A stretch of DNA of 64,000 nucleotides from an uncultured Methanosarcinales archaeon (GCA_964452935.1 CAYVNO010000005.1:8558-72557); one strand, 5' to 3'; numbered from the stretch's first letter, positions 6,228-24,766 are shown. Notes: generated by a model from the letters alone, not told the origin. A program made the numbers and translations.

Positions 6228-6243
6228 GTATTACCTTCTCCGA
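6228..6243 (+). promoter_or_regulatory. Copy 1 of GTATTACCTTCTCCGA element, upstream of TATA-like CTATTAAT and the methylase start
   Basis: Exact 16-mer. It lies 36 nt before ATG 6280 in the divergent integrase/methylase spacer. Confidence 0.6.
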
Positions 6244-6279
6244 GTTTTCTCTATTAATCATTGTAATCTTTAGGTTTAC

Positions 6280-6987
6280 ATGTTAAACAAAATCTACTGC
6301 ATGGACAATCTGAAATATCTTAAGAAAGTAAAAGATGATTCTGTTGATCTTGTGGTAATTGATCCTCCTTATAATGTCAGCCAAAAGAATAATATTAATT
6401 GCAAGAAAATAAAGGTTGTAAAGAATTTTGGTTCTTGGGATTATGGCTTTGACCCAGTTCCTGTTTTGAAGGAATTGAAGAGGGTTTTGAAACCTAATGG
6501 ACAAATTTACATATTCTGTGCTACTAAACAAATTCCAATTTATATGAAAATACTTGAAGAGGAGTGGTTTTTTAGGAATTTATTAGTTTGGTATAAGACA
6601 AATCCTGCTCCTAGGTTATCGAAGACTAATTATGTCTTTGCTAATGAGTACATTCTTTATGCAATTAACGAGAAAGTTAAACCTTCCTCAGCAACATTTA
6701 ACTTTTTGGGGCAGGTTCAAATGCATAATACAATTATTACCTCTGCTCTACAGGGGAAAGAAAGATTGAAGAAAGATGGCAAGGCTTTGCATCCGACTCA
6801 GAAGCCATTGTCAGTGTTGAAGAAGTTGATCTCTGTATCAAGTAATGAAGGCGATGTTGTTCTTGATGTGTTTATGGGTGTTGGTTCAACTGCTGTTGCT
6901 TGTAAGGAACTAGGTAGAAATTTTATGGGATGTGAGAGTGATATCCAATATTATCATTCAGGAATAGAAAGATTATCAAAGAATTAA
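6280..6987 (+). CDS. DNA methyltransferase, beta-class N6-adenine/N4-cytosine type (DPPY)
   Basis: Motif IV VVIDPPYNV precedes C-terminal motif I FMGVGSTAVACKELGRNFMGCE. Confidence 0.85.
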   Translation: MLNKIYCMDNLKYLKKVKDDSVDLVVIDPPYNVSQKNNINCKKIKVVKNFGSWDYGFDPVPVLKELKRVLKPNGQIYIFCATKQIPIYMKILEEEWFFRNLLVWYKTNPAPRLSKTNYVFANEYILYAINEKVKPSSATFNFLGQVQMHNTIITSALQGKERLKKDGKALHPTQKPLSVLKKLISVSSNEGDVVLDVFMGVGSTAVACKELGRNFMGCESDIQYYHSGIERLSKN

Positions 6988-8094
6988 CTATCTATTCATA
7001 ATCTCAAAATTTGTTGGATTATCTAAGAACCAATGTTGAGTTTTTTTATTAAGTAAACCTCTAACTTTAATTTTATATCCTTCTCGGTATGCATTACATG
7101 CATTTCTATGGTCTTCATCATTAAGATACAAGTAAACTTTTCTTTTTAATGCTGGAACATCTATCGTGATTAGTTTTCTTTCAGTATTTTGATCTACTTT
7201 TTGTCTTTGCAACTTTTTAATGATGCCCATAATTGTAATAGTTTCTTCTTCAGGTATTTTCTTCAAATAATTTGCCATTTTATTAAACTTTTTAAAATAC
7301 TGACTTGACTTTATCTCAGCTTCAATAGGCAATTCTTGATCCGATAATTCTGTGCTATCCCATTTCACTAAAAAATTAACATTAAATCCATTTTCATCTT
7401 TAAGTAAATTAGCTATTGCTTCACAAACATTCTTATTTAATTTCTTATTATAATCATTTCTAAATACATTTTCATCTTCAACTTCTAATTCTTCAACTTC
7501 CTTAATTCCTTGAATTAATCTTGCAACAGTTTTACGCCCAAGATCATTTAAATAACCATTATCATCATCAATTTCGATAAGATATGTTCTTCCTAAGGGT
7601 ACTTTTATTGAAATTACAAAACTACCTGCTTCTGTTTGAGCAAATTCGCAGTTTTCAACTAATTCTTTTGCGTCGTTAAATGGTTTTCTATATTGACTTT
7701 TTTCTTGAATTTCTGAACAAGCCCCAAATGTAATCATTTTTTTAACATTATTCATAACTCCTATAAAATCATTAAGTGGTATTGTACCACCTTTTGTGTT
7801 ATTTGCCACAAATCTAATCTTCATAAGGTCATAACCTTTATTTTTTATTTCTTCTTGAATATCTTGTGGATTTCTATTTTCCAATACTGCTAAGGCTTCA
7901 ATCAAATCCTTAATTCTAGAAGAATAGTCTATAAGATCTTCAGTGTTAGGGATTAGTAAATTTATTTGTTCTTCAAATTGTTTATTTATTTTTATAAATT
8001 TATCTTGAGAAGAGATAAAATTCCAGTCATGTTTACTTAAATAGTTTTTTATGTTATCAAGTTTTAATTTAAAGGTCATTAATCTCACCTCCAT
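6988..8094 (-). CDS. Hypothetical protein, last gene of the DUF2779/DUF4365 operon
   Basis: A 368-aa ORF with no motif I recognise. It overlaps the DUF4365 gene end by 26 nt, and its stop abuts the methylase stop with zero gap. Confidence 0.6.
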   Translation of the reverse strand: MEVRLMTFKLKLDNIKNYLSKHDWNFISSQDKFIKINKQFEEQINLLIPNTEDLIDYSSRIKDLIEALAVLENRNPQDIQEEIKNKGYDLMKIRFVANNTKGGTIPLNDFIGVMNNVKKMITFGACSEIQEKSQYRKPFNDAKELVENCEFAQTEAGSFVISIKVPLGRTYLIEIDDDNGYLNDLGRKTVARLIQGIKEVEELEVEDENVFRNDYNKKLNKNVCEAIANLLKDENGFNVNFLVKWDSTELSDQELPIEAEIKSSQYFKKFNKMANYLKKIPEEETITIMGIIKKLQRQKVDQNTERKLITIDVPALKRKVYLYLNDEDHRNACNAYREGYKIKVRGLLNKKTQHWFLDNPTNFEIMNR

Positions 8095-8590
8095 TTTTAA
8101 CTTGAGCTATAAGATTATTCAATTGATCTATATTAAATATATTTTCTGTAGGTATTTCTAATGTGGTACTACTATCTTCATTATCTTTTCTCTCTTTTCC
8201 CTTTAGACATATCCAATATGCACATTTCTTAACCATCAAAGAATTGACATCTTGAGTTAACCATGAATCCCTATCTTCAGGCAACATCAATACTACAAGT
8301 ATCCTCTGAGTCCCAGCATTTGGATCTCTAAGATCATTAAAATTTTTATTACGCAAACTATATTTAATGTGTGATTTTGTTAAAGTGCATCGTGTACTCG
8401 CCTTTACTTGTATATCTATATTATATCCTGAGGGGCAATACTTTCCTGAATCTCTTCTAATAATATCTTTTACAGTGATATCAAAACCATAATCTTTTGA
8501 ATCCTCTCCATAAATATATCCTGCCATTCCACAAACTGCTTGAATATATGCTATGCTTAAAGCTTCTTTGATATCATTATCTTGTAACAA
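8069..8590 (-). CDS. DUF4365-like PD-(D/E)xK (restriction-endonuclease fold) protein
   Basis: N-terminus EALSIAYIQAVCGMAGY, then DYGFDITV and NIDIQVKAS (D...Q-x-K core), as I recall for DUF4365. Confidence 0.65.
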   Translation of the reverse strand: MLQDNDIKEALSIAYIQAVCGMAGYIYGEDSKDYGFDITVKDIIRRDSGKYCPSGYNIDIQVKASTRCTLTKSHIKYSLRNKNFNDLRDPNAGTQRILVVLMLPEDRDSWLTQDVNSLMVKKCAYWICLKGKERKDNEDSSTTLEIPTENIFNIDQLNNLIAQVKNGGEINDL

Positions 8591-8615
8591 ATTTCTTACC
8601 TCAAATTCATTTTAT

Positions 8616-10058
8616 TTAATTTGTTATTTCTTTTAATTTATCCACAATCCATACCATACTTTCTGTATCTAAACAGCAGTATTTTAATAGGTTTGCTCTT
8701 ATTTCTTCCTTATTATCAAGTTTAGGTTTAATATGACTATAAAAATAAAGCATACTTGCATCTCCACCATTGCTTATTTCTAGTTCAGAATAACCTTTTT
8801 TTCCTGTAATTGCAGGAAGAACTTTTTTAATGGAATATGAACCTTTTTGTGATGGATTGTAATAATAAAATGCTCTAAATGGATCAGCCAAATCAACAAT
8901 ACGATTTATTGCTTGTTCAAGCCAGTCTTTATGTTCTGGGAAATCTTCAGCCAATTTTTTCATAACATTAATCTCAAATGATTTGTTAAATACTATTATG
9001 TCTCCTTTTCCATCTAAATCATTTTTCATTTGTTCAAGTAAAGCAGGTCTAGGATCTCCTTCTTCTGAAAGGAATTCTTTATGTTCTACTTTGCCATCTT
9101 CATGTTGGATGTGTAAACTGTATTGAAAAGGTATCTTTTGATATGGTCTTGAATTGTCAAACAAAGGAACTGCAGTATCCAATGTTTCAAAGTCAAAGTT
9201 ATACAATGGATAATTTAGTGATTTGAGAAAGTGTTTGATATGTTCTTTAGATATCATAACTTTGTTTTCATCAACTGCTTCTTTTATTATTTGGTCTTTA
9301 ACTGTAAGTTTTGTTCCTTCTGGGATGTCTTTTATGGCTTTTATTCCATTTTCCATTAATTTCCAATACACTCTCCAGTTAGTTAGTTGTAATACATTAT
9401 TTTCTGGTAAGGTTGACCAGCATTGTTCTTTTAATGCACATGGATATGGTTTATTACATTTCATTGAAATATGCATATCTGGGGCTGTTTCTTGGTTAAT
9501 TATTCTTAGAAATGTTTTGGCATTGGTTTCTATATTATTAATTAAATCTACCTTTTCAGTAACTTCTTCCATCAAAATTAGTTCTTCAGGCTTGATTTCT
9601 CCTTTTTTCACATATTCTTTGTTTAAGTATATTACAAAACATTTATTTATCTTCAATCCTATTTTTTCACAGACATATTTTTGAAAAGCTAAATCAGGAA
9701 TATGTTGTTCTTTGACTTTTGTAGTGGATTTGATTTCATATAAATCCCAACCATTTTTAGAAGGTTTAATCAAATCTGCTCTAATAAATAGATTATCAAC
9801 CATAAATCCAGCTTCAAATATTGTTTTATTTTGCTCTACTGCTTCTTTAGTCTTTTCAAGATTTTCTTTAAATTCTAAACCATTTAAATCGATAGATTCA
9901 GGAAAGAGTTTCTTAACATATTCTTCAAAATCATGACCTTGTGAGAATTTATGTTCATCAAAAAGAGTAATCTCTGGAAGTTGTTTTCTATCTGCAAACC
10001 ATAATAATCTGAGACATTGCAATCCATTCATGTATTTTGATTTAGTTAGTTGAGTCAT
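8616..10058 (-). CDS. DUF2779-family protein (N-terminal Cas4/RecB-like PD-(D/E)xK nuclease plus DUF2779 domain)
   Basis: SKYMNGLQCLRLLWF N-terminus, RADLIKP...LYEIKST nuclease core, and DFETLDTAVPLF...IPFQYSLHI in the C-terminal half. Confidence 0.75.
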   Translation of the reverse strand: MTQLTKSKYMNGLQCLRLLWFADRKQLPEITLFDEHKFSQGHDFEEYVKKLFPESIDLNGLEFKENLEKTKEAVEQNKTIFEAGFMVDNLFIRADLIKPSKNGWDLYEIKSTTKVKEQHIPDLAFQKYVCEKIGLKINKCFVIYLNKEYVKKGEIKPEELILMEEVTEKVDLINNIETNAKTFLRIINQETAPDMHISMKCNKPYPCALKEQCWSTLPENNVLQLTNWRVYWKLMENGIKAIKDIPEGTKLTVKDQIIKEAVDENKVMISKEHIKHFLKSLNYPLYNFDFETLDTAVPLFDNSRPYQKIPFQYSLHIQHEDGKVEHKEFLSEEGDPRPALLEQMKNDLDGKGDIIVFNKSFEINVMKKLAEDFPEHKDWLEQAINRIVDLADPFRAFYYYNPSQKGSYSIKKVLPAITGKKGYSELEISNGGDASMLYFYSHIKPKLDNKEEIRANLLKYCCLDTESMVWIVDKLKEITN

Positions 10059-10195
10059 TTTAATTAATAATCATTTAAAATAATGTGAGCCCCTATAAAA
10101 AGATTGCCTCTTTGTTTAAAAAATCTTACTATTAGTAATATACTTCAAATATAATAGTAAAATTTATAAATCCTGAATCTTTAGGGATTAAGATA

Positions 10196-10342
10196 ATGCC
10201 AAGAATTAAGCTGGAGGGTTACTTTTGTACAAGGTGCGGTCATAAGTGGGTTCCTAGAGATAATAATGAAAAACCAACAGTTTGCCCTAAATGCAAAAGT
10301 CCGTATTGGGATAAGCCTAGAAAAAATGAAAAAAGTCTTTAG
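10196..10342 (+). CDS. 48-aa zinc-ribbon protein (not in the supplied ORF track)
   Basis: Hand translation gives MPRIKLEGYFCTRCGHKWVPRDNNEKPTVCPKCKSPYWDKPRKNEKSL, with two CxxC pairs. It overlaps the proposed dcm start by 17 nt. Confidence 0.5.
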   Translation: MPRIKLEGYFCTRCGHKWVPRDNNEKPTVCPKCKSPYWDKPRKNEKSL

Positions 10343-11324
10343 AACTATAGACCTATTCGCAGGAGTAGGGGGTGTTAGATTAGGATTTGAAAGAGCTGGT
10401 TTTAAAACTGTTTTTGCCAATGATTTTGACAAGACCTGTAAACAAATTTATAATATTAATTTTAAAGAGCCCAAACTTATTATTGAAGATATCTGGAAGG
10501 TTGAAATATCAAAACTTCCTAAATTTGATATCCTTTTAGGAGGATTTCCCTGCCAAGCATTCAGCATTGCAGGGTATAAAAAAGGCTTCAAAGATGAAAA
10601 GAATGGGGGAAATTTATTTTTTAGAATTGCTGAAATATTAGAGGAGAGAAAGCCTGAGGCAATCCTTCTTGAAAATGTTAAAAACCTAAAAACACATGAT
10701 AAAGGGAAAACTTTCAAAATTATTAAAGCGACATTAAAAAAATTAGGATATCATATTAAAACAGAAGTGTTAAACAGTATGACTCACGGCAATGTGCCTC
10801 AGAATAGAGAACGAATTTTTATTGCAGGATTTCTCGATAAAAATAAAGCAGACTGTTTCAGATTTCCAGAGGAGATTCCCTTAACTATATCGTTTAGAGA
10901 ATTGGTGGCAGAAAGAGCAGATAATAAATATTATTACAATGATAAGCCTCTATACAAAAGAATTAAAGATGACATAAATTCAGAACATACTGTTTACCAA
11001 TGGAGAAGGAAATATGTAAGAGCAAATAAAAAAGGAGTCTGTCCTACACTTACAGCAAATATGGGAAGAGGAGGGCATAATGTCCCAATTATAAAAAATA
11101 GTAAGGGGATAAGAAAGCTGACTCCTAAAGAATGTTTTCTTATTCAAGGATTCCCTAAAAACTTTAAACTTCCCGAAGATCTATCTGACAGTAATTTATA
11201 TCATCAAGCAGGAAATAGTGTGACTGTTCCTGTAATTGAAAGAATCGCTTTTAATATGAGAAATGTTCTGCTTGGAAAAGTCAAACCAAGAAAAGACATT
11301 TTAACATCATACATAGATAATTAA
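10326..11324 (+). CDS. dcm: DNA (cytosine-5)-methyltransferase
   Basis: Motif I DLFAGVGG, motif IV GGFPCQAFS, motif VI ENVKNL, motif VIII QNRERIFI, motif X GNSVTVPV. The start is chosen at MKKVFRTIDLFAG; the track ORF starts at 10266. Confidence 0.92.
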   Translation: MKKVFRTIDLFAGVGGVRLGFERAGFKTVFANDFDKTCKQIYNINFKEPKLIIEDIWKVEISKLPKFDILLGGFPCQAFSIAGYKKGFKDEKNGGNLFFRIAEILEERKPEAILLENVKNLKTHDKGKTFKIIKATLKKLGYHIKTEVLNSMTHGNVPQNRERIFIAGFLDKNKADCFRFPEEIPLTISFRELVAERADNKYYYNDKPLYKRIKDDINSEHTVYQWRRKYVRANKKGVCPTLTANMGRGGHNVPIIKNSKGIRKLTPKECFLIQGFPKNFKLPEDLSDSNLYHQAGNSVTVPVIERIAFNMRNVLLGKVKPRKDILTSYIDN

Positions 11325-12373
11325 ATTTGTTTTCTTATTTTCTCTATATATTGCTTTGGACTCTCAATTATTACATTATTTAGATTCCTTTGTGCGATCC
11401 AGATATTGTTTCTTTTTAAAGAAGGGTTCATTCCCACAGTAATAAACCAGCATTCATACACTTTGCCTTTTTCCAGATCAAAAGTACCAAGCACCTTATT
11501 TTTAATGACAGCATTATTTTTTGCATGAATATACAATCTTTGAGAAGATAATTTCCCATTTTTATAATTTTTCTTTAGATAAACATCAATATCTCCTTTA
11601 TAATCAAAAGAACCAAACTCCTTTGGTTTAGGCAGATTATTACTCATTATTACAGGAAATTTTCCTGATTTAAGAGATAGTTTTTCAAAAGGATTATCAT
11701 CAGATAATATTTTTTTAGTTGTCATACCACTTGCTTCTTTTATTAGTTCTGTTTCATAGAGATATGAACCTTGATTAAACGGAACTCCATGTTTTTGTAG
11801 ATCATTTCCTGTGATAATGTATTGGACTTTAACAATTAAATCTCCGACTTCACAGAATTTTTTTAATAAGTCTAAATCTATTTTTGATTTTAGATAAACA
11901 CCCAATGGATCAATATCACCCTCTTTGTTTTTTGTCAATAAAGTTGCATAAATGAGTATAACTTTTTCAGTTTTGTTGTCTACAAGTCTATCAGAAAGAA
12001 TAGTATTAAATTGTTCTGCAGTCAAACCAATCCATCTGTCAGCCTCAGAAATATTTTTTATTTCGACATATAGATTAGGTTCCCTTAAATTATTATTCTC
12101 AACAATTTTGACAATATCTGGATCGGATATATTGTCTTTGCTTAATTCATGAATATCAAAATCTAAAATGCATTTTTTCTTGGTTTCCTTTTCAATAATC
12201 TTTGCTACTCCAATCTCAATTAATTTTCCTATAACAAAGCTGTCAAATATTCCTCCAAGCCCTCTATATTGACCTGTAGTTCTATTTGCAGCCATCTTAG
12301 TTTTATCTAAATGATATTCAACTGCAAATTTAAAACATTTGTCTAAATCTTCTTCTTTTATTTTGTATTCCAT
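11321..12373 (-). CDS. Probable type II restriction endonuclease partner of the m5C methylase
   Basis: It converges on dcm with a 4-nt overlap and is co-oriented with vsr. It has a PD-(D/E)xK-like core, SDPDIVKI...LYVEIKNI. Specificity is unknown. Confidence 0.55.
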   Translation of the reverse strand: MEYKIKEEDLDKCFKFAVEYHLDKTKMAANRTTGQYRGLGGIFDSFVIGKLIEIGVAKIIEKETKKKCILDFDIHELSKDNISDPDIVKIVENNNLREPNLYVEIKNISEADRWIGLTAEQFNTILSDRLVDNKTEKVILIYATLLTKNKEGDIDPLGVYLKSKIDLDLLKKFCEVGDLIVKVQYIITGNDLQKHGVPFNQGSYLYETELIKEASGMTTKKILSDDNPFEKLSLKSGKFPVIMSNNLPKPKEFGSFDYKGDIDVYLKKNYKNGKLSSQRLYIHAKNNAVIKNKVLGTFDLEKGKVYECWFITVGMNPSLKRNNIWIAQRNLNNVIIESPKQYIEKIRKQI

Positions 12374-12374
12374 C

Positions 12375-12776
12375 TTAATCTGCTTTTTTTACTATTTTAT
12401 TAACAACCTTAACCAAATCTGCTTTTATTTGGTGCTCCCACAATGTTAATATTTTAAAACCTGATTGTTTAAGTATTTTTTTGTTTCTAGCGTCTCTTTT
12501 CACATTCTTTTCTAATTTGGGAAGCCAGTATTCCTTCTTGCTTTTAGGTTCTTTATAGCATTTTGGACACTTATGCCAGAAACAGCCATGCAAAAAAACA
12601 ACAGTATTGGTCTTTGTTAAGAGAAGGTCTGGGTTTCCATGAATAGAAGGATGCATCTTATGTTTGATTTTTCTTCCTTTTAAATAATTATGAATCTTTT
12701 TCTCTTGAGCAGTCCACTTGCTTCTAATTCTAGACATACATTTTGATCTTTGCTCTTTTGTCAAATTATCAGACAT
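12375..12776 (-). CDS. vsr: Very-short-patch repair endonuclease
   Basis: RSKCMSRIRSK, GNPDLLL, FLHGCFWHKC, EYWLPKLEKNVKRD and LTLWEH are collinear with E. coli Vsr. Confidence 0.9.
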   Translation of the reverse strand: MSDNLTKEQRSKCMSRIRSKWTAQEKKIHNYLKGRKIKHKMHPSIHGNPDLLLTKTNTVVFLHGCFWHKCPKCYKEPKSKKEYWLPKLEKNVKRDARNKKILKQSGFKILTLWEHQIKADLVKVVNKIVKKAD

Positions 12777-12817
12777 TTACTATATATAATAATCTTCTAT
12801 TTAAAGTTTTTTCCCCA

Positions 12818-12833
12818 GTATTACCTTCTCCGA
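12818..12833 (+). promoter_or_regulatory. Copy 2 of GTATTACCTTCTCCGA element, upstream of TATA-like CTTTACATAT
   Basis: Exact 16-mer. It lies 39 nt before in-frame GTG 12873 and 48 nt before ATG 12882. Confidence 0.6.
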
Positions 12834-12881
12834 GCTCCTTTCTTTACATATCGCACCCTTAAGGTTGATAGGGTGAATGGG

Positions 12882-13037
12882 ATGCAATGTATGATATGTG
12901 AAAAGGAACTCAAAACCAAAGAAGCAGTAATGTGTAAGACCTGCTTAGATTTCTTTGAATGGAAATACAAGAGCTTTGAGAATTTCCAAACTTCCCGTAA
13001 TAAAGCCCTTAAATCTAATGGAGGTAAAGGAAAATGA
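12882..13037 (+). CDS. Small zinc-finger protein (51 aa), first gene of the pilus-like operon
   Basis: MQCMICEKELKTKEAVMCKTCLDFF has CxxC...CxxC. Its stop overlaps the next start (ATGA). The start could instead be GTG 12873. Confidence 0.5.
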   Translation: MQCMICEKELKTKEAVMCKTCLDFFEWKYKSFENFQTSRNKALKSNGGKGK

Positions 13038-13288
13038 CTGAGGGAACATTGTTTGAGATATTTATTGCTTTGCTCTTTGTTGATTTAATACTAGCTCTTG
13101 CTGTGATCATTAAATTGAAACTCAAGAAACCAAACAAGTTAAAGAAAGCACAGCAGAAGCTCTTGATTTCAGTTTCTGAGCTAAACAATGAGAAAGAAAT
13201 GCTCATCAAAGAGATTGATGAACTAGAAGAGCAGATTGACACAAAAAACCTAGCATTCAAAAAACTGTTTGGGGGTGAAACACAATGA
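13034..13288 (+). CDS. Single-TM protein with coiled-coil tail
   Basis: TM segment FEIFIALLFVDLILALAVII followed by a charged heptad-like tail. ATGA overlaps occur on both sides. Confidence 0.55.
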   Translation: MTEGTLFEIFIALLFVDLILALAVIIKLKLKKPNKLKKAQQKLLISVSELNNEKEMLIKEIDELEEQIDTKNLAFKKLFGGETQ

Positions 13289-13620
13289 AAATACTGCCTT
13301 TGCTGTTTTTGATGCTGTTGACAATAACTCTAGCAACACCACTTGTACTAGCGACAATTGACTTTGATCAAGGTCTTACTCAAGATGAGGAAGACATGAT
13401 TGATGAGATTTTAGCTCCAGTAATGAAAGTCTACAACTTCATAAAATATGCAGCTACTGTTGCTGGAGTATTGATGCTGGTCTTTGCAGGAATAACCTTT
13501 GTCACAGCAGGAGGAGACACAGGACAAAAAGAGAAAGCCAAAAACATGGCTGTGGGTGTAGTCATTGGATTAATCATAATCTGGGTCGCACCTTTAGTAG
13601 TGGAGTTTATCTTCACATGA
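13285..13620 (+). CDS. TrbC/VirB2-like pilin candidate
   Basis: 111 aa. It has a signal peptide (LTITLATPLVLA), then two hydrophobic helices (AATVAGVLMLVFAGITFV and VGVVIGLIIIWVAPLVV) joined by a short GGDTGQKEKAKN loop. This is the VirB2/TrbC architecture. Confidence 0.6.
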   Translation: MKILPLLFLMLLTITLATPLVLATIDFDQGLTQDEEDMIDEILAPVMKVYNFIKYAATVAGVLMLVFAGITFVTAGGDTGQKEKAKNMAVGVVIGLIIIWVAPLVVEFIFT

Positions 13621-15659
13621 AAAAAACAATTTTTATTTTAGTGACAGCAGTTTTACTGCTGTCCAATTTTGTTTATGCTTTTGATTGTAGTTTAACCTAT
13701 GATGAAGACTACTGTAATGAAATCCTAGAATCCGAATTAAATGAAACTGAAAAAGATTTGTTATTCTCTACTTTGCTCTATCAAGATAGTACTTTCCCTG
13801 ATCATGAATTTATTGAAGATTATAATCTTAATTTTTATGTAGACTCTCCTCCAGATAATACAACATACAGTTCAACACAAATAAAGAATGCTTGGCTCTC
13901 TTTCTTAGCAGTATTTCCAGCTGTATATGAAAATAACACCTTGTATGTTTTTGAAGAATTGAAAGCATTAAGTGAATACAACTATGATGTCCAAATACCA
14001 ACAGAAACAAAACCAAATGACTGCAAAACTGAATATACTTTAGTTAATGATCAAGCTCAATTGAATTATTATCTTAATGGCAATTACAAAGAGGATGATA
14101 AACTTGCTTTGTTGTACATTGATCAAGATGGCACTTTAACAGCAGAATTAGAAATAAACACAAATGTTGAGGTTGACCATTATGAATGGTATTACTACTG
14201 CTGTGCTTGGGGTAAAAAAGGACAATGTACTAAATATTGTAAGAAATGTAAATATGCTTACACTGATTATGAATATGATAATTTAATAATTTCTGAGGAC
14301 AAAGAGATAGAACTCTATACAGAAGAACCAACAGCAGATTTAATAGTAGTAAATCAATACCAAAATACAACTAAAGGGATATTTACAGCTGAGAATTATA
14401 GTTTTTTCAGATTAAGCTTTGAAGATTCATACTTAACTAAACAAAACTACTATTATGACTTAGTATTTGAAAAGAAACCTTATCACTTTGCATATCTTAG
14501 AGCTGTTCCTTATGAAGATACAAAAATAAAAAACATTTTTGTAAACAATGATACATTCTTTGTAAAGAATACAAACAACTGTTCATTAACTGCTTACAAT
14601 CACTTTTATAACTTCACCTCTGGTTGTGATCTAATTTTATATCAGGAAAATATAGAAGAATTAAGCATAGAAACAGATGATATTGACTTAAGTATATTAC
14701 TTTATGTTTTAGTATTTTTAGGAGTTATTTACATAATTTATAGGTTATTAAAATCACAATACAAAAAGATAATACTGCCCATATTATTTATTATCTTATT
14801 CATACCTTTTGTATCAGCAGATGATTCAGAAGAATGTGGAATAACTAATTTAGCTTCATGTCTGCCAGAGGCAATATATGAATACTTTTTGTATTTGATT
14901 AACTTGCCTGTTTTACCTTTCCTTGCAGGAATTGAAGCAATGTTAACAGCAGATATTGCAATTGATTTATTTTTTGGAGTATGGAATGTGATAAGATACC
15001 TCTTAAGTTTCTTTTATGTATTCTTATTGATCTATGTAGGATATGTTTTCATTACCTCGAACTCTAACCCAATAAAAAGAGCTCATGCTAAGGATATGTT
15101 AAAGAATATTTTTTTAATGTTAATATTAATACAAGGATCATTTTATATCTATGGCTTGGCTTTGGATATTAATGCGGTATTAACTGATGCAATATTATCA
15201 ATGATTGATCCTACCTTCTTTTTGATTACAGTTGACAATGTAGCTAACGTAGCACTGGAAGGAGTTTATTTATCCACTTATTGTTTTACTTTATTTATTA
15301 CATTACTGATGTTGGTATTTAGATATGTTGTTGTTTGTTTGGGTGTGATAATTTTCCCTATTGGAATATTTTGCTATTTTATCCCTCCCTTGAAAGGTTA
15401 TGGCAAGTTTATCATCAATGTTTTAGCTATTTTTATCTTCATTACATTTTTGGATTTGTTGATTGTGTTATGTTGCTCAATGATAGTTGAGCTTCCTTTA
15501 TTTGAGAATATCAAGATTTTAATAATGATAAATTGCTTTTCAATGATAATTTACTCAATGTGGCTTGCAATAAGATTTGCAATGAGAATGTCCACTAACA
15601 CTTCATTGAAAGACGATTTGAATCAAGCTGTGAAATATATAGCTATGGTTGCTGTTTAA
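13617..15659 (+). CDS. VirB6/TrbL/CedA-like polytopic membrane protein with large secreted N-domain
   Basis: Signal peptide, about 350-aa extracytoplasmic domain with a Cys cluster (YYCCAWGKKGQCTKYCKKCKY), then 8 or more TM helices. It directly follows the pilin-like gene. Confidence 0.5.
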   Translation: MKKTIFILVTAVLLLSNFVYAFDCSLTYDEDYCNEILESELNETEKDLLFSTLLYQDSTFPDHEFIEDYNLNFYVDSPPDNTTYSSTQIKNAWLSFLAVFPAVYENNTLYVFEELKALSEYNYDVQIPTETKPNDCKTEYTLVNDQAQLNYYLNGNYKEDDKLALLYIDQDGTLTAELEINTNVEVDHYEWYYYCCAWGKKGQCTKYCKKCKYAYTDYEYDNLIISEDKEIELYTEEPTADLIVVNQYQNTTKGIFTAENYSFFRLSFEDSYLTKQNYYYDLVFEKKPYHFAYLRAVPYEDTKIKNIFVNNDTFFVKNTNNCSLTAYNHFYNFTSGCDLILYQENIEELSIETDDIDLSILLYVLVFLGVIYIIYRLLKSQYKKIILPILFIILFIPFVSADDSEECGITNLASCLPEAIYEYFLYLINLPVLPFLAGIEAMLTADIAIDLFFGVWNVIRYLLSFFYVFLLIYVGYVFITSNSNPIKRAHAKDMLKNIFLMLILIQGSFYIYGLALDINAVLTDAILSMIDPTFFLITVDNVANVALEGVYLSTYCFTLFITLLMLVFRYVVVCLGVIIFPIGIFCYFIPPLKGYGKFIINVLAIFIFITFLDLLIVLCCSMIVELPLFENIKILIMINCFSMIIYSMWLAIRFAMRMSTNTSLKDDLNQAVKYIAMVAV

Positions 15660-15716
15660 CTTTCTTAAGAATCTTTAGAAACAATATGCCCATAATTTAT
15701 TGTTGATTAAGTTGTA

Positions 15717-16604
15717 TTAAAAATGAGTGGGATATCTTTGTCTCAATCTTTCTCTAGTTACTGCCATATTTTCTCTATATCTTGCATTAGCTTCACTAAT
15801 TTGAGAATCTTGAATACCATTTAGTCTTGCATCACACCTATCAATACCATCACCACCCAAATCAATAACTTCTATGGGTCTTTGAACAGTTAACTCTAAT
15901 GGATTAGCTCTAGAAATGTCAGTAATAACAAATTCAAATACATGGGAAGTTTCATCATAAGAAAATGATGAATATCTCCCTTCTGGTGCATCTGTAATTG
16001 TTAAAGTTGCATCATATCCCTTTCTATGTACAAAACCAACATTTCTAATTCTTTCTAAAGTTTCATCATCAAAAACAGCACTAAATGTCCATTTAGGTCT
16101 ATACTCCCATTCTTGAGTTTTTCTCCATTTCTCATTAAACGCTCTTAACTCATCAATCTGAGTTTGGGTTTCAGAATCTCCAGAACAATTCTGAGGCCAA
16201 GCTTCTAAGATTTCAGGATGTGTAACAGTGATCCTTTTGAAAAGAGCTCCGTAAGTATTAGCTCCATTTAAACTTTGATTCAAAACAGTATTTAAGAAAT
16301 ATCTATCACCTATATCCGCAGAAGTCATTTCATCTTCATTCATTAATTCAGCTGCAAATTCATAAGCTTCTGTGTAAGCTCTGACAAAGGCTGGTAAATC
16401 TTTATCTGATAATGCCTTATCCATAGCCTCATAAGCTAAATCAAATTGTTCATGAATATTAGAAGAAGCTTCTCTACTTTTCAAGAGTTCATCAACAGAC
16501 ATTTTGGTATTGTCTGCACTATCATCATCACCTTTATTACAAGCAACTCCCCCCCCCATTATCAGTAGGGTGGTTAATAATGCTAAATCATGATATCTTC
16601 TCAT
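15717..16604 (-). CDS. Lipobox-bearing secreted protein, paralog A
   Basis: Signal peptide ending GGGVAC. It is Lys-poor and acidic. The C-terminal block DLGGDGIDRCDARLNGIQDSQI is shared with 16660..17580. Confidence 0.7.
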   Translation of the reverse strand: MRRYHDLALLTTLLIMGGGVACNKGDDDSADNTKMSVDELLKSREASSNIHEQFDLAYEAMDKALSDKDLPAFVRAYTEAYEFAAELMNEDEMTSADIGDRYFLNTVLNQSLNGANTYGALFKRITVTHPEILEAWPQNCSGDSETQTQIDELRAFNEKWRKTQEWEYRPKWTFSAVFDDETLERIRNVGFVHRKGYDATLTITDAPEGRYSSFSYDETSHVFEFVITDISRANPLELTVQRPIEVIDLGGDGIDRCDARLNGIQDSQISEANARYRENMAVTRERLRQRYPTHF

Positions 16605-16659
16605 AATCTATTTAGAATTGGCCTTAGCTTATATATTTTATTATTTTGAAGTCTTCTCT

Positions 16660-17580
16660 TTATATTCCTGGAAAGAACCCAGTTCCTTCATATCTCTCAT
16701 GAAGTTTATCCCTAGAAGTATGTAAACAAGAATCATATTGGGAATTAGCAGAGTCAATTTGTGATTCTTGAACTCCATTTAATCTTGCATCACATCTATC
16801 AATACCATCACCACCCAGATCAAGAACATCACATTCTCTAGTTACTGAGGTAGCTATTCCATTATTTTGAGTAGTAAATAAGCTAAATCTAATGAAAGAT
16901 GCATCTTCATACCAATCTATTCTTGTAAAAGTTCCAGGAGTTAAGTATCTTGAACTATCATTCATGGAAGCTCCATGAGGAAGATTTGCATTTCTTGTTA
17001 ACTCTAAAGTTCCATCATCATGTATGGTCATCCACTCCCACATATCAATCTGAATACCTTCATCTCTTCTTTTATTATTAACAAATCCCACCATATCACC
17101 AATCATTGATTTAGCATCAGAATATTCATCACCACAATCACTTGGCCAATCTCTCAACATTTCAGGATTTGCCATAATTTGTGCAAAAATCTGGCCATAA
17201 GTACCTCTACTGGTGTCATAAAAAGTCTCATGCCAAGCAGCATCAGTTACTAAGCCCATTTCTCCAATCTCTTCCATAAATTCACGAGTATCTCTATATG
17301 CGTCGACAAAAGCAGGTAAGTCTTTTTGAGCTAAAGCATCATCCATTTCTTTGTAGTGTTCATTTCTTTTTTCAAAATACTCTTTTTGCATCTCAGCCAA
17401 TTCCTCTATAATTTGAGTTCCCACTACTTCAGTTATTCTAGTATTTCTACTTGAAACAGTTACCCTATCTTCTAATTCTTCAGATAAGGGATCTTTAGGA
17501 TCTTCACAACCAGCTAGAAGACTAATTAAAGGAACTGTTGCTAACATTGTCCAAAGTCGATTATAAGTCATAAATCTCAT
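16660..17580 (-). CDS. Lipobox-bearing secreted protein, paralog B
   Basis: Signal peptide ending LLAGC. It shares KDLPAFV, the WP..C motif and DLGGDGIDRCDARLNGVQESQI with paralog A. Confidence 0.7.
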   Translation of the reverse strand: MRFMTYNRLWTMLATVPLISLLAGCEDPKDPLSEELEDRVTVSSRNTRITEVVGTQIIEELAEMQKEYFEKRNEHYKEMDDALAQKDLPAFVDAYRDTREFMEEIGEMGLVTDAAWHETFYDTSRGTYGQIFAQIMANPEMLRDWPSDCGDEYSDAKSMIGDMVGFVNNKRRDEGIQIDMWEWMTIHDDGTLELTRNANLPHGASMNDSSRYLTPGTFTRIDWYEDASFIRFSLFTTQNNGIATSVTRECDVLDLGGDGIDRCDARLNGVQESQIDSANSQYDSCLHTSRDKLHERYEGTGFFPGI

Positions 17581-17709
17581 GACAGTCTATATTGTTTATA
17601 TATTTTACCAATCTAAATCACCCAATTTATAAACTAATTGCCCTGAAAGTTCACAATCAGTGAATTTAATCTATAAAACCAACTTATTTGGAAATTCATA
17701 AACACAAAA

Positions 17710-17725
17710 GTATTACCTTCTCCGA
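17710..17725 (+). promoter_or_regulatory. Copy 3 of GTATTACCTTCTCCGA element, upstream of TATA-like TTTTATAT
   Basis: Exact 16-mer. It lies 36 nt before ATG 17762, the same spacing as copy 1. Confidence 0.6.
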
Positions 17726-17761
17726 CATCTGCTTTTATATCATCAGAGCCCTGATATTTAT

Positions 17762-20700: not shown

Positions 20701-20824
20701 TAGATACTTGAGGTTTGGTTTGCCCATACTAGGCAGAGCAGATATAGAAAGGTTTGTAATGCAACAATTTAGTGGTAAGAAGAACTCACATATAGGGCGG
20801 GATTTATGCATTACAAATGAATAA
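17762..20824 (+). CDS. VirB4/TrbE/CedB-like conjugation-type ATPase with N-terminal TM (VirB3-like) segment and C-terminal extra domain
   Basis: Two N-terminal TM helices, Walker A ATSGSGKSYFTK, Walker B LLVVDEAWSM and LLMITQDVADL. The roughly 200-aa C-terminal extension contains ESIDH...KKPDIIF...EIVLEIETG. Confidence 0.85.
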   Translation: MSYDIPPPLQHKEKIMFGLTFPQLGYAFLAFIIIFVIIFKINLPIAVSGTISLFVVSIASFFMFFDGRKRLVSWYNYLRNPKVEVLSDQLKKIVDIKKIENNSIQKSKSKLAILEVIPMNFMLKTEEEKESIIITFQKFLNSLDFPIQIHISSNPISLSGHLKYTNNQVQKKIKEKKDKSLNKLIDSYCNFVNSSIKDNSIQNRNFYIIIQEKDNLDMQVEVCKDKLTSLGVKVRRLETPDIINMLHQQIANNKDKEFNKEEIKDLAHFMFAPDKVNFLADHFKVDDKFCKIIAVTGYPHSVEMGFMDKIISSGDKYDISLHIEPFPIETTMVDLNRDLQKQQSDIYADSKKGILNQSLEIKFKSTKRVLEDLQKGKQKLFNISLYIMCKGDSKEDIDLLGKKIKADLDGLMIQNAIPKYQMMESYTSTLPLANNVLDIKRNIHTEGLGAFFPFSSPFLDIDNDGIMLGLNKNKIPLIKNIFNLANANGIILATSGSGKSYFTKLLLSRQYMNGCDVIIIDPQGEYLAITEHYKGESITISKDSKTIINPLDLMGHEYLEKRLSLMDLFPIMFGDINELQKSILDRAIDMTYSNRGITRDDYESHVPPTMGELYNMLRKLEKDAVQQEKVTYRALINRIHMYTKDGVFGFLDRQTEINFDNNFVCFNIGHMPKQVKPVVMYLVLDYVFMRMKNSNKRKLLVVDEAWSMLQTAEESSYIFEIVKTCRKYNLGLLMITQDVADLVASKAGHAVLTNTSYTFLLRQKPAVIQNVSKTFNLSQTEKEFIISAKLGSGILIMENDHQELEVIASPEEHKLITTNPDEMIKMGEKKKPKDSGIKKEDEQANLDLNKIVFSGEGLTLVQINFLNNNSYVFKKACGLHSNVPKKFYVKERPPESIDHTLLVGLIVEELKKHTDKVNVYQTKKPDIIFKNKVGQEIVLEIETGIGFDKHKKRLEEKFSELKKKKGKRAYIVLTELKIKNRYLRFGLPILGRADIERFVMQQFSGKKNSHIGRDLCITNE

Positions 20825-22330: not shown

Positions 22331-22858
22331 TTAAACATCTTCCATCTTAAACAACTGCTTTGAATACTCTTTGTCTCTCATGAACTTGATCAAATCTTGG
22401 TGAGAACTAGCAGATCTTCCAACATCTTCCAGAACAACCATAGTTTCAGTGTTGCCTATACCTTCAATCTGTGCAATTTTAGTTACAAACCTTTTCAACT
22501 CTCTTATGTCCCTTGCCCTTACTCTCAACAAAATATCATTCTTTCCAGTTAGAGTACTTATACAAGAAATAAAAGGATACTTAGCAAACTGTTTAGCAAT
22601 ATCGACTTGAGTGGTTTGATTTCTTTGTACGTGTTGATAGTGTGTATTTATCAAAACATAAGCAACAACATACAAACCAATTTTTTCATGATCTATCTTA
22701 GCAGAGTAACGTTTAATCACACCTTTCTTTTCCATTCTTTTGATCCTGTTCATTACAGTCATGGTAGGAATATTAGTTATTTTAGAAATATCTCGATGTG
22801 ACATTCTAGCATTGTCTATCAACACTTCCAATATTTTGAAGTCCTTTTCATCTGGCAT
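22331..22858 (-). CDS. Lrp/AsnC-family transcriptional regulator
   Basis: HTH FKILEVLIDNARMSHRDISKITNIPTMTVMNRIKRMEKKGVIKRY plus a RAM-like C-terminal domain. The start overlaps the upstream stop (TAATG). Confidence 0.85.
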   Translation of the reverse strand: MPDEKDFKILEVLIDNARMSHRDISKITNIPTMTVMNRIKRMEKKGVIKRYSAKIDHEKIGLYVVAYVLINTHYQHVQRNQTTQVDIAKQFAKYPFISCISTLTGKNDILLRVRARDIRELKRFVTKIAQIEGIGNTETMVVLEDVGRSASSHQDLIKFMRDKEYSKQLFKMEDV

Positions 22859-24520: not shown

Positions 24521-24766
24521 ATGCTAGTTCCAACCCAGTTGGTCACCAAAAAAATCATATCTGTTAATGGAAAAGTCTTTTACAATGATAGAAGACGGAG
24601 AATAGACCTAAAGAGACCTATAAGAGATATGTTTGAAGGAGAGGGTATGGAAATTTTTTATAAGATGGAAATATGTTTGGGTAATAAAAGAACAATTGAA
24701 AGAATTAAGGAATTAGCAGACAAAAATGTCACGCCAATAATAATGTATTTTATGGTGAAAAAATGA
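24521..24766 (+). CDS. Small hypothetical protein translationally coupled to TFB
   Basis: 81-aa ORF. GGGGG/TAATTGAA precedes the ATG, and its stop overlaps the TFB start (ATGA). Confidence 0.4.
   Translation: MLVPTQLVTKKIISVNGKVFYNDRRRRIDLKRPIRDMFEGEGMEIFYKMEICLGNKRTIERIKELADKNVTPIIMYFMVKK

What the first reader, a model, noticed from the sequence alone, without database searches (positions are those of the whole stretch)
6228..17725. Exact 16-nt element GTATTACCTTCTCCGA at fixed distance upstream of three operons
**Seen:**
- Identical copies lie at 6228..6243, 12818..12833 and 17710..17725, all in the same orientation and all intergenic. The flanks are not conserved.
- An A/T box follows each copy after 7-9 nt (CTATTAAT, CTTTACATAT, TTTTATAT).
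- The first start codon of a plus-strand unit then follows. The spacing is 36 nt to ATG 6280 (methylase) and 36 nt to ATG 17762 (VirB4-like).
- For the pilus-like operon it is 39 nt to GTG 12873 or 48 nt to ATG 12882.
- The motif has no dyad symmetry.
- I did not notice further copies on either strand, but I could not scan exhaustively.

**Established:** archaeal promoters have a TATA box about 26 nt upstream of the start site with BRE directly upstream, and leaderless mRNAs are common.

**Inference:**
- The element sits just upstream of BRE/TATA of three leaderless units.
- It is probably a shared activator or repressor site that ties the methylase, pilus and ATPase units into one regulon.
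- Candidate binders are the element's small zinc-ribbon proteins (10196..10342, 12882..13037), or an unusual TFB.

**Alternative:** the copies could be directly repeated recombination sites for the adjacent tyrosine recombinase, allowing cassette excision.
Basis: partly seen in the sequence, partly recalled or inferred. Interest (0 to 1): 0.7.

Follow-up and report, generated by a model that had tools for sequence, protein, structure and literature searches.

The report
Specialised archaeal promoter for secretion genes
The repeated 16-base element is the upstream half of a special, evolutionarily conserved promoter that switches on DNA-transfer (type IV secretion-like) genes and a DNA methylase in a tiny DPANN archaeon. 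It always travels with a dedicated extra copy of the basal transcription factor TFB and an unknown 81-residue partner protein.

Summary
GTATTACCTTCTCCGA occurs exactly three times (6228, 12818, 17710, + strand). Each copy lies 7-9 nt upstream of a weak TATA box, which sits 21 nt from the start of the next + strand unit.

The host is a Woesearchaeota (DPANN) archaeon. The same element, at the same spacing, precedes the orthologous methylase, pilin-operon and VirB4 genes in eight other genomes (22 sites in all), while the 40 nt upstream have diverged. It continues into a C-rich, non-canonical BRE slot (consensus gTAtTAC.TTCTCCGA-cATcct-TATA).

Ordinary promoters in the window, and T4SS promoters in about 30 related genomes without the motif, use an A-rich BRE and a strong TATA.

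All seven loci where both features can be seen carry a translationally coupled pair: an 81-aa basic orphan protein (24521-24766) and a short TFB paralog (24763-25563). The paralog has an intact core, an altered recognition helix and a truncated B-reader/linker. No motif-less locus has the pair.

Best reading: a sigma-factor-like, TFB-directed promoter class for a T4SS/methylase regulon. Binding and transcription start sites are inferred, not shown.

The recombination-site alternative and the zinc-ribbon binder idea are not supported.

The parts
6228..6243 (+). Motif copy 1 (GTATTACCTTCTCCGA), upstream promoter element of the N6/N4 DNA methylase gene
   Evidence: Exact match. The orthologous site in L002 (TTAATACCTTTACCGA) keeps the same 36-nt distance to the ATG.
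6244..6258 (+). Non-canonical BRE slot (GTTTTCT) plus weak TATA box (CTATTAAT); 21 nt follow to ATG 6280
   Evidence: The geometry matches leaderless canonical promoters in the window, where the TATA ends mostly 21-26 nt before the ATG (range 16-28).
6280..6987 (+). N6/N4 DNA methyltransferase, predicted leaderless regulon member
   Evidence: Pfam PF01555, E=7.7e-43. 91% identical ortholog in L002 behind a motif-type promoter.
12818..12833 (+). Motif copy 2, upstream promoter element of the pilus (T4SS pilin) operon
   Evidence: Exact match. Exact or near-exact copies sit at the orthologous position in L002, L072, L014, L047, L049 and L090.
12834..12850 (+). 9-nt slot (GCTCCTTTC) plus TATA-like box TTTACATA
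12872..12876 (+). GGTGA Shine-Dalgarno-like box at the predicted transcript 5' end, 5 nt before ATG 12882
   Evidence: TAGGGTGA/TAAGGTG is conserved in L002, L014 and L072. The GTG there is followed by an in-frame stop, so the ATG is the start.
12882..15659 (+). Pilus operon: 51-aa zinc-ribbon protein (12882-13037), 84-aa membrane protein (13034-13288), VirB2/TrbC-like T4SS pilin (13285-13620), 680-aa T4SS protein (13617-15659)
   Evidence: Pfam T4SS_pilin and TrbC. Synteny holds in more than 30 loci.
17710..17725 (+). Motif copy 3, upstream promoter element of the VirB4-like ATPase gene
   Evidence: Exact match. Orthologous sites occur in L002, L014, L047, L049, L076 and L090, 36-39 nt before the start codon.
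17726..17740 (+). BRE slot CATCTGC plus TATA box TTTTATAT; 21 nt follow to ATG 17762
17762..20824 (+). VirB4/TraC-like T4SS ATPase, predicted leaderless
   Evidence: Pfam TraG P-loop, DUF87 and AAA_10. The N-terminus is conserved from residue 1.
24521..24766 (+). 81-aa basic orphan protein, always directly upstream of and overlapping the short TFB gene; candidate co-factor or reader of the upstream element
   Evidence: Family of 32 clusters at 90% identity and 57 representatives among 1.84 billion proteins. Invariant GKVFYNDRRRRIDLKRPIRDLF. No Pfam, PDB or fold match. Its HMM hits only pair-bearing loci.
24763..25563 (+). Short TFB paralog (266 aa), candidate promoter-specificity factor for the motif promoters
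   Evidence: Pfam zinc ribbon plus two TFIIB repeats. The core aligns end to end with P. woesei TFBc 1D3U. It belongs to a distinct clade of about 57 clusters (250-273 aa). That clade carries the signature GVIEVTIRKRS where canonical TFBs have GVTEVTIRNRY, and it lacks the B-reader EWR motif and about 30 aa of linker.
22331..22858 (-). Lrp/AsnC-family regulator in an operon divergent from the 81-aa/TFB pair; possible upstream input (weak)
   Evidence: Pfam. AsnC-type HTH genes lie within a few kb of the pair in L002, L067/L072, L073, L076 and the contig carrying P0161. They are absent next to it in L069, L070, L077 and L078.

Best explanation
The 16-mer is the distal part of a roughly 31-bp specialised archaeal promoter.

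**Layout relative to the predicted start site**
- GTATTAC(C/A)TTCTCCGA at -52 to -37.
- A C-rich cATcct(g/c) slot where the A-rich BRE normally sits, at -36 to -30.
- A weak TATA box at -29 to -22.

**What it drives**
- This promoter class replaces the housekeeping BRE/TATA in front of the T4SS-like pilus operon, the VirB4 ATPase and an orphan N6/N4 DNA methylase.
- In relatives it also precedes further T4SS genes.

**Proposed mechanism**
- A dedicated initiation module encoded a few kb away reads the promoter. The module is a short TFB paralog (24763-25563) and its translationally coupled 81-aa basic partner (24521-24766).
- The TFB keeps its zinc ribbon and TBP/DNA-binding core. It has clade-specific changes in the BRE-recognition helix and a truncated B-reader/linker.
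- The TFB paralog probably reads the TATA-proximal core (CCGA-CAT). The 81-aa protein, or the pair together, probably reads or stabilises contacts with the distal GTATTAC block.
- The pair itself has an ordinary A-rich BRE/TATA promoter. Once it is made, it switches the regulon on, much as an alternative sigma factor does.
- Transcripts are predicted to start at the ATG for the methylase and VirB4 (leaderless). For the pilus operon they are predicted to start about 10 nt upstream, at a GGTGA box.

**Shown versus inferred**
- Shown: the sequence conservation, the spacing and the co-occurrence.
- Inferred: binding, activation and start sites.
For: 1. **The motif is real and beyond chance**.

2. 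**The spacing is fixed.**
   - The motif is followed by 7-9 nt, an 8-nt TATA, then 21 nt to the ATG.
   - That is the same TATA-to-ATG distance as in the 19 canonical promoters examined in the window, most of which look leaderless.

3. **The element is conserved at orthologous genes.**
   - There are 22 sites in 9 genomes, in front of orthologous methylase, pilin-operon, VirB4 and other T4SS genes. The genomes span VirB4 identities of about 51-73% to the window.
   - Top-base frequency is 0.80 in the motif against 0.45 in the 40 nt upstream.

4. **PWM scans are specific.** Scans of about 1.06 Mb of related loci put only these sites at the top.

5. **The BRE slot is unusual.**
   - It is 41% C and 20% A in motif promoters, against 16% C and 51% A in canonical promoters of the same window.
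   - Motif-less relatives drive the same operon from an A-rich BRE/TATA with a Shine-Dalgarno leader.

6. **The 81-aa/short-TFB pair tracks the motif.**
   - It is adjacent to the T4SS cluster in the window, L002, L014, L047, L067/L072, L069, L070, L076, L090 and the contig carrying P0161.
   - All 7 loci where both the pair and a T4SS promoter are visible have the motif. None of about 30 pair-less loci does.

7. **The pattern does not simply follow ancestry.** On a VirB4 neighbour-joining tree, pair-plus-motif loci are interspersed with motif-less loci. This implies joint gain or loss several times.

8. **The short TFB clade is distinct.** It has conserved substitutions in the HTH recognition helix and a shortened B-reader/linker.

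9. **The pair's own promoter is canonical**.

10. **There is a precedent.** In Sulfolobales the TFB paralog TFB3 co-evolves with the Ced system. It activates ups/ced promoters that carry a non-palindromic motif at -44 to -39 (PMC6101594, PMC5817253).
Against: - There is no transcript, start-site or binding data.
- The canonical TFB-BRE contact reaches only about 7 bp upstream of TATA (my recollection of the 1D3U structure, not tested here). The TFB alone therefore cannot easily explain conservation out to 23 bp upstream of the TATA box (the -52 edge of the motif).
- The recognition helix is only modestly changed: VTIR is kept.
- The 81-aa protein has no recognisable DNA-binding fold. Its AF2 model has pLDDT 75 and finds no fold match. 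No fusion to TFB was found.
- One MAG (CAZUKZ01) has the pair on one contig (L073) and a motif-less T4SS cluster on another (L006).
- Two pair loci (L077, L089) show no motif in the 10-kb flanks that are visible.
- I could not confirm that pair-bearing genomes also encode a canonical TFB.
- Co-occurrence was judged only within 10 kb either side of each gene.
Confidence: 0.6

Rival explanations
1. The 16-mer is an upstream activating site for a conventional sequence-specific activator. Candidates are an Lrp/AsnC- or TrmB-type regulator encoded nearby, or the 81-aa protein acting alone. The activator would recruit the housekeeping TBP/TFB to a weak BRE/TATA, as TFB-RF1 or Ptr2 do. On this view the short TFB plays no part in promoter recognition.
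For: - The position directly upstream of a weak BRE at a fixed distance is that of the TFB-RF1 binding motif (PMC5937170).
- Lrp/AsnC-type genes lie within a few kb of the pair in the window, L002, L067/L072, L073, L076 and the contig carrying P0161.
- The conserved stretch extends further upstream than TFB is known to reach.
Against: - The site is non-palindromic, whereas Lrp, TrmB and TFB-RF1 sites are (semi)palindromic.
- Lrp and TrmB homologs also occur in motif-less loci and are missing from several pair loci: L069, L070, L077 and L078.
- The BRE slot itself is conserved as a specific C-rich sequence, not merely degenerate.
- The TFB paralog, not a wHTH regulator, is the invariant companion.
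Confidence: 0.25
2. The 16-mer is an operator for a repressor that keeps the T4SS and methylase genes silent until a signal arrives.
For: - One shared, highly specific site in front of several units fits co-repression.
- Conjugation and DNA-transfer genes are often repressed by default (general knowledge).
Against: - Archaeal repressors usually bind over BRE/TATA or downstream of it (as summarised in PMC5937170), not upstream of the BRE.
- The core elements here are weak and non-canonical, which argues for a need for activation.
- No repressor-like gene co-occurs specifically with the motif.
Confidence: 0.08
3. The copies are directly repeated recombination (att-like) sites for the adjacent tyrosine recombinase, allowing cassette excision.
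For: - Three direct repeats lie in one orientation.
- A 169-aa integrase gene sits 57 nt from copy 1.
Against: - No inverted-repeat core.
- Copy number and positions differ between genomes (1 in L072, 3 in L002 and L090, 4 in L049), but each copy always lies a fixed 36-48 nt before a start codon. One fills a 54-nt gap between co-directional genes in L047.
- No integrase gene lies beside the motif copies in the other motif-bearing loci. L002, L014, L047 and L072 have no homolog of the window integrase in the stretch held.
- The segments between copies are not cassettes; they split one functional T4SS cluster.
Confidence: 0.02

Closest known systems
Sulfolobales TFB3-dependent DNA-damage regulon (ups pili and Ced DNA-import promoters with the A(N)TTTC motif at -44 to -39)
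   Same: - A TFB paralog co-evolves with a VirB4-family DNA-transfer system and activates its promoters.
- Several promoters within the cluster share a non-palindromic motif just upstream of the BRE. Its position (-44 to -39) nearly matches the conserved CTCCGA core here (-42 to -37) (PMC5817253, PMC6101594).
   Different: - TFB3 is truncated. It lacks the C-terminal HTH/core and works together with TFB1.
- The paralog here keeps the complete core and HTH and instead has a shortened B-reader/linker.
- The motif here is 16 nt plus a 7-nt slot rather than 6 nt.
- An obligatory 81-aa partner gene is present, and the factor genes lie next to the regulon.
- The lineage is DPANN, not Crenarchaeota.
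- No sequence homology between the systems was tested or claimed.
Haloarchaeal alternative TFB/TBP promoter selection (for example hsp5 with TFB2/TFBb)
   Same: A full-length TFB paralog selectively recognises particular core promoters, in the manner of a sigma factor (PMC2396416).
   Different: - There the specificity lies within the BRE plus TATA, and flanking sequence is dispensable.
- Here conservation extends 23 nt upstream of the TATA box.
- Here the factor comes with a small partner protein and is dedicated to one gene cluster.
TFB-RF1 (PF1088) and Ptr2-type activators with an upstream binding motif
   Same: A conserved element lies at a fixed distance directly upstream of a weak BRE and a TATA box. 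The combination is phylogenetically conserved with its target operon (PMC5937170).
   Different: - The TFB-RF1 site is a 13-nt palindrome bound by a classical regulator that recruits the housekeeping TFB.
- Here the element is non-palindromic, and the invariant companion is a TFB paralog plus an orphan protein.
Bacterial ECF or phage-encoded sigma factor regulons (analogy only)
   Same: A dedicated initiation factor gene sits next to the genes it controls. The target promoters are long, highly conserved and unlike housekeeping promoters.
   Different: The transcription machinery is different, and no homology is implied beyond the proposed TFB/sigma relationship.

Membership tests
Archaeal BRE/TATA core promoter with leaderless mRNA | A/T-rich TATA box centred about 26 nt upstream of the start site | tested here: met
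   The TATA-like octamer ends 21 nt before ATG 6280 and ATG 17762. The same holds at orthologous sites, and canonical promoters of the window mostly show 21-26 nt (range 16-28).
Archaeal BRE/TATA core promoter with leaderless mRNA | Purine/A-rich BRE immediately upstream of TATA | tested here: not met
   The slot is 41% C and 20% A in 19 motif promoters, against 16% C and 51% A in 19 canonical promoters of the window.
Archaeal BRE/TATA core promoter with leaderless mRNA | Transcription starts at or next to the start codon | not testable with these tools
   No RNA data. This is inferred from the conserved promoter-to-ATG distance. The pilus operon instead has a conserved GGTGA about 5 nt before the ATG.
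Alternative-TFB-directed promoter class (haloarchaeal type; TFB3 regulon as a functional analogue) | A TFB paralog distinct from the housekeeping TFB is encoded in the genome | tested here: met
   A short TFB clade is separated from canonical TFBs by a gap in score and length and has signature substitutions. The presence of a canonical TFB in the same genome was not verified. A canonical TFB is seen in a related Woesearchaeota MAG, L009.
Alternative-TFB-directed promoter class (haloarchaeal type; TFB3 regulon as a functional analogue) | The paralog and the promoter class co-occur across genomes | tested here: met
   7 of 7 against 0 of about 30 loci, with a patchy distribution on the VirB4 tree.
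Alternative-TFB-directed promoter class (haloarchaeal type; TFB3 regulon as a functional analogue) | The paralog binds or activates these promoters selectively | not testable with these tools
   Needs EMSA, footprinting or in vitro transcription.
Sulfolobus TFB3 family (membership of the protein) | Truncated TFB lacking the C-terminal cyclin/HTH core, with a coiled coil instead | tested here: not met
   Both cyclin repeats and the HTH align with 1D3U over residues 75-266. It is therefore not a TFB3 homolog in architecture.
TFB/TFIIB family (protein 24763-25563) | N-terminal zinc ribbon plus two cyclin-like repeats with a C-terminal HTH | tested here: met
   Pfam PF08271 and PF00382 x2; PDB alignment.
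TFB/TFIIB family (protein 24763-25563) | Conserved B-reader (EWR.F) and a full-length B-linker | tested here: not met
   The motif is absent and about 30 residues are missing in all 51 short-clade members compared with 50 canonical TFBs.
UAS of TFB-RF1/Lrp/TrmB-type activators | (Semi)palindromic site bound by a dimeric wHTH regulator | tested here: not met
   The 16-mer has no dyad symmetry apart from GTA-T-TAC, and the deeply conserved core CTCCGACAT is asymmetric.
UAS of TFB-RF1/Lrp/TrmB-type activators | A cognate regulator gene linked to and co-occurring with the site | tested here: inconclusive
   AsnC-type genes lie near the pair in some loci but not others, and Lrp/TrmB homologs also occur in motif-less loci.
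Tyrosine-recombinase core/att sites | Inverted-repeat arms around a spacer, located at element boundaries | tested here: not met
   No inverted repeat. The copies lie at fixed distances from start codons inside one gene cluster, and copy number varies from 1 to 4 between genomes.

The most novel reading that the evidence does not exclude
The short TFB and the 81-aa basic protein form a two-subunit, sigma-like promoter-specificity factor that is carried with a (possibly mobile) T4SS/methylase module in DPANN archaea.

- The 81-aa subunit would read the distal 16-mer, or would substitute for the missing B-reader/linker.
- This would give the module a transcription programme orthogonal to the host's housekeeping TFB.
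- It would be the first archaeal initiation factor with an extended promoter recognition site of about 31 bp, and a new family of basal-factor accessory proteins.
Probability: 0.35. Interest if true: 0.85.

Novelty: new variant of a known kind. Interest (0 to 1): 0.66.

Why it matters
Archaea are thought to use TFB/TBP paralogs as sigma-factor-like switches. Clear cases with a defined promoter class and a defined regulon are rare: haloarchaeal heat shock and Sulfolobus TFB3.

This system offers a sharply defined set of components:
- a long, nearly invariant promoter;
- a dedicated TFB paralog with a diagnostic signature;
- an unknown, obligatory 81-aa partner;
- a compact regulon of pilus genes, VirB4 and a DNA methylase.

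It occurs in uncultured DPANN archaea whose T4SS-like apparatus is itself uncharacterised.

- **Test bed.** It is ready for in vitro work on how TFB paralogs achieve promoter selectivity, and on whether accessory subunits extend promoter recognition.
- **Parallel.** It echoes the TFB3/Ced link in Crenarchaeota. That hints that dedicating a TFB paralog to DNA-transfer machinery is a recurrent archaeal strategy.
- **Practical use.** The motif can serve to predict the regulon, and the correct start codons, in Woesearchaeota MAGs.

Tried and rejected
- **Chance or low complexity.** Rejected by shuffles. The exact 16-mer in IMG/VR gives only 10 single hits, none with a TATA box or start codon at the right spacing.
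- **RNA gene or tRNA-derived att site.** No Rfam or tRNA hit lies at the copies. No long direct repeats flank the region. The intron-like tRNA at 30790-30889 has no repeat elsewhere in the window.
- **GTG 12873 as a leaderless start.** Rejected, because an in-frame stop follows the GTG in L002 and L014.
- **Zinc-ribbon 12882-13037 as the binder.** Disfavoured. The family is the usual first gene of this operon in motif-less loci too, and is even fused to a C5 methylase in L011.
- **TrmB (21483-22220) or Lrp (22331-22858) as specific binders.** Their homologs are not restricted to motif loci.
- **Motif upstream of the pair itself (autoregulation).** Not found. The pair has a canonical promoter.
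- **Fold or family assignment of the 81-aa protein.** No result from Pfam, a PDB profile search, or Foldseek against PDB and BFVD. A search of 1.84 billion representatives found only 57 small standalone relatives and no TFB fusion.
- **Weak PWM hits.** Window 21052, 37420 and -60864, and scattered hits in other loci, lack the promoter architecture.
- **Literature.** Searches found nothing on DPANN T4SS promoters or this TFB clade.

Full report
**1. The observation**

GTATTACCTTCTCCGA occurs exactly three times in the 64-kb window, at 6228, 12818 and 17710, all on the + strand. With up to 3 mismatches there are 5 matches against 0.29 expected, and no shuffle reached 5. The two 3-mismatch copies (21052, 37420) lie inside minus-strand ORFs and have no promoter-like sequence downstream.

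The three exact copies lie in divergent intergenic regions.

**2. Organism and genes**

The window is archaeal. It encodes a TFB, TrmB and Lrp-type regulators. The closest relatives of its VirB4-like ATPase are from Woesearchaeota/Nanoarchaeota (DPANN) MAGs. The region 5.6-26 kb holds the following genes:

| Coordinates | Gene |
|---|---|
| 5662-6171 (-) | 169-aa integrase |
| 6280-6987 | N6/N4 DNA methylase |
| 8616-10058 (-) | DUF2779/Cas4-like gene |
| 10266-11324 | C5 methylase |
| 12375-12776 (-) | Vsr |
| 12882-15659 | Pilus operon: zinc-ribbon, small membrane protein, VirB2-like pilin, 680-aa protein |
| 15717-17580 (-) | Two paralogous genes found only in this genome |
| 17762-20824 | VirB4 |
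| 21483-22220 | TrmB |
| 22331-22858 (-) | Lrp |
| 24521-25563 | 81-aa ORF overlapping a 266-aa TFB |

VirB4 starts at ATG 17762, because the N-terminus MxYDIPPP is nearly invariant in 22 homologs. The NCBI call that starts 15 codons later is probably wrong.

**3. Promoter geometry**

Downstream of each copy comes a 7-9 nt slot, an 8-nt TATA-like box, and then 21 nt to ATG 6280 and ATG 17762.

Nineteen ordinary promoters in the same window have a strong TTTATATA-like box that ends mostly 21-26 nt (range 16-28) before the ATG. It is preceded by an A-rich BRE (51% A, 16% C). This genome therefore commonly makes leaderless mRNAs. The motif promoters share the geometry but not the BRE: their slot is 41% C and 20% A.

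For the pilus operon, the conserved TAGGGTGA sits exactly where transcription should begin. In L002 and L014 the GTG inside it is followed by a stop codon. ATG 12882 is therefore the start, and GGTGA is a Shine-Dalgarno-like box in a roughly 10-nt leader.

**4. Conservation elsewhere**

I fetched VirB4 loci from GTDB genomes and JGI metagenomes and looked up individual proteins. The same element turned up at the same spacing in eight other genomes:

| Locus | Genes preceded by the element |
|---|---|
| L002 | methylase, pilin operon, VirB4 |
| L072 | pilin operon (exact 16-mer) |
| L014 | pilin operon, VirB4 |
| L047 | three sites |
| L049 | four sites |
| L076 | two sites |
| L090 | three sites |
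| L078 | one site |

- In L047 one copy, its slot, the TATA box and 21 nt fill the whole 54-nt gap between two co-directional genes.
- Across the 22 sites the consensus is gTAtTAC.TTCTCCGA cATcct. c.TTtaA. tATc.
- Top-base frequency is 0.80 in the 16-mer against 0.45 in the 40 nt upstream.
- The deepest-conserved part is CTCCGA-CAT. The GTATTAC block is lost at some secondary promoters.
- PWM scans of about 1.06 Mb of related loci put only these sites at the top.
- Ten exact 16-mer hits in IMG/VR are single and lack the architecture, which shows what chance hits look like.

**5. What goes with the motif**

- Every motif-bearing locus in which the neighbourhood is visible has an 81-aa ORF directly followed by, and overlapping, a 257-266-aa TFB gene close to the T4SS cluster.
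- An HMM of the 81-aa family hits only these loci among all those fetched.
- All 7 loci where both the pair and a T4SS promoter are visible have the motif.
- None of about 30 pair-less loci does. Those use an A-rich BRE/TATA and a Shine-Dalgarno leader for the same operon.
- On a neighbour-joining tree of VirB4, one deep clade is entirely pair/motif-bearing.
- In the other clade, the pair-plus-motif loci (the window; L002 with L072; L014) are scattered among motif-less neighbours of equal or closer relatedness. Motif and pair were therefore gained or lost together several times.
- The zinc-ribbon protein 12882-13037 is the usual first gene of the operon in motif-less loci as well. TrmB and Lrp homologs are also not motif-specific.

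**6. The two proteins**

*The short TFB*
- It has a zinc ribbon and two cyclin repeats. They align from residue 75 to the C-terminus with P. woesei TFBc in the TBP/TFB/DNA crystal structures 1AIS and 1D3U.
- It belongs to a clade of about 57 clusters (250-273 aa, at least 40% identical). A gap separates this clade from canonical TFBs (at most 34% identical, 300-330 aa).
- Compared with 50 canonical TFBs, the 51 short ones lack the B-reader EWR.F motif and about 30 residues of the linker.
- They carry GVIEVTIRKRS where canonical TFBs have GVTEVTIRNRY in the HTH recognition helix.

*The 81-aa protein*
- It is very basic, with an invariant GKVFYNDRRRRIDLKRPIRDLF.
- It has no Pfam, PDB-sequence or fold match. 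The AF2 model has pLDDT 75.
- Only 57 relatives exist among 1.84 billion representatives. All are small and standalone.

The pair's own promoter is canonical.

**7. Interpretation**

The 16-mer is the distal part of a roughly 31-bp specialised promoter. That promoter defines a small regulon of pilus operon, VirB4, orphan methylase and, in relatives, further T4SS genes.

The most economical mechanism is that the short TFB, with its 81-aa partner, recognises this promoter class in place of the housekeeping TFB, as an alternative sigma factor would. I put this at about 0.6.

- What is shown: the conservation, the spacing, the abnormal BRE and the co-occurrence.
- What is inferred: binding, activation and start sites.
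- Main weakness: conservation extends further upstream of TATA than a TFB is known to contact. Some other DNA reader is therefore needed. The 81-aa protein is a candidate, but it has no recognisable DNA-binding fold.
- Main rival (about 0.25): a conventional activator binding an upstream site and recruiting the housekeeping TFB, in the manner of TFB-RF1 (PMC5937170).
- A repressor operator (about 0.08) and recombination sites (about 0.02) fit poorly.

**8. Comparison with known systems**

- *Sulfolobales TFB3 circuit (closest functional parallel).* TFB3 is a TFB paralog that co-evolves with the VirB4-family Ced DNA importer. It activates ups/ced promoters that carry a non-palindromic A(N)TTTC motif at -44 to -39 (PMC6101594, PMC5817253). 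The protein here is not a TFB3: it keeps the whole core and HTH. The motif here is also much longer.
- *Haloarchaeal TFB paralogs.* They select promoters through BRE and TATA alone (PMC2396416).

I found no description of this clade, the partner protein or the promoter in the literature held. I therefore class it as a new variant of a known kind, alternative-TFB-directed transcription.

Noticed in passing
window 30790-30889 (-): A tRNA-Tyr(GUA)-like gene carries an insertion of about 25 nt in the D-arm region. It has its own canonical BRE/TATA upstream. ARAGORN missed it, and Rfam tRNA scores only 21.5 bits, below the gathering threshold. This is probably a tRNA with a non-canonical intron, as known from some archaea. 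No repeat of it exists elsewhere in the window.
   Followed up: partly
window 27155-27829 (+): A GGDEF diguanylate cyclase domain protein (Pfam E=1e-43) is encoded in an archaeal genome, where c-di-GMP signalling is unusual. Weak homologs (about 29-30% identity) occur in L014/L036 and L012.
   Followed up: no
window 15717-16604 and 16660-17580 (-): Two paralogous genes share an 80%-identical 96-nt stretch and have signal-peptide or lipoprotein-like N-termini. They are inserted between the 680-aa T4SS gene and VirB4. None of the roughly 80 related loci has a homolog. The insertion coincides with VirB4 having its own copy of the promoter.
   Followed up: partly
window 17762 vs 17807: The NCBI protein for VirB4 (P0001, 1005 aa) starts 15 codons downstream of ATG 17762. 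The conserved N-terminus MxYDIPPPLQHKEK shows that the longer form is right. The motif promoter could help to fix such start codons.
   Followed up: yes
window 5662-6171 (-); L011:4033-4539; L073:71-583: The integrase has only 169-170 aa (catalytic domain only), a size that recurs in relatives. In L073 it is preceded by a motif-like promoter: CTACTCAGACATCCGA, then TAATTAAA, then 21 nt, then ATG. In the window its promoter has the same TATA-to-ATG spacing but no motif.
   Followed up: partly
window 10196-10342, 10266-11324, 12375-12776: A Dcm-type C5 methylase is paired with a Vsr mismatch endonuclease. A 48-aa zinc-ribbon ORF overlaps the methylase start. In many motif-less relatives a C5 methylase sits directly upstream of the pilin gene, and in L011 the operon's zinc-ribbon is fused to it. 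DNA methylases therefore seem to be a regular companion of this T4SS.
   Followed up: partly
window 60849-60864 (-): A partial motif, TTAATAATTTCTCCGA, is followed after 3-5 nt by TTTTATATA in an intergenic region. No matching ORF start follows at the usual distance. Its meaning is unclear and it may be chance.
   Followed up: partly
window 6228-6234 etc.: The first 7 nt of the element (GTA-T-TAC) form a perfect 3+1+3 palindrome, although the element as a whole is asymmetric.
   Followed up: no
L004, L005, L010-L012, L017, L018, L020, L023 (record titles): Several GTDB MAGs carry this Woesearchaeota-type T4SS cluster (VirB4 60-71% identical to the window's). Their record titles say 'uncultured Methanosarcinales archaeon', which looks like a taxonomic mislabel.
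   Followed up: no
L006 and L073 (both from MAG CAZUKZ01): One MAG has a motif-less T4SS cluster on one contig and the 81-aa/short-TFB pair on another. That pair's 81-aa protein is the closest relative of the window's (72% identical). Possible explanations are a second T4SS cluster, a mixed bin, or an exception to the co-occurrence rule.
   Followed up: no
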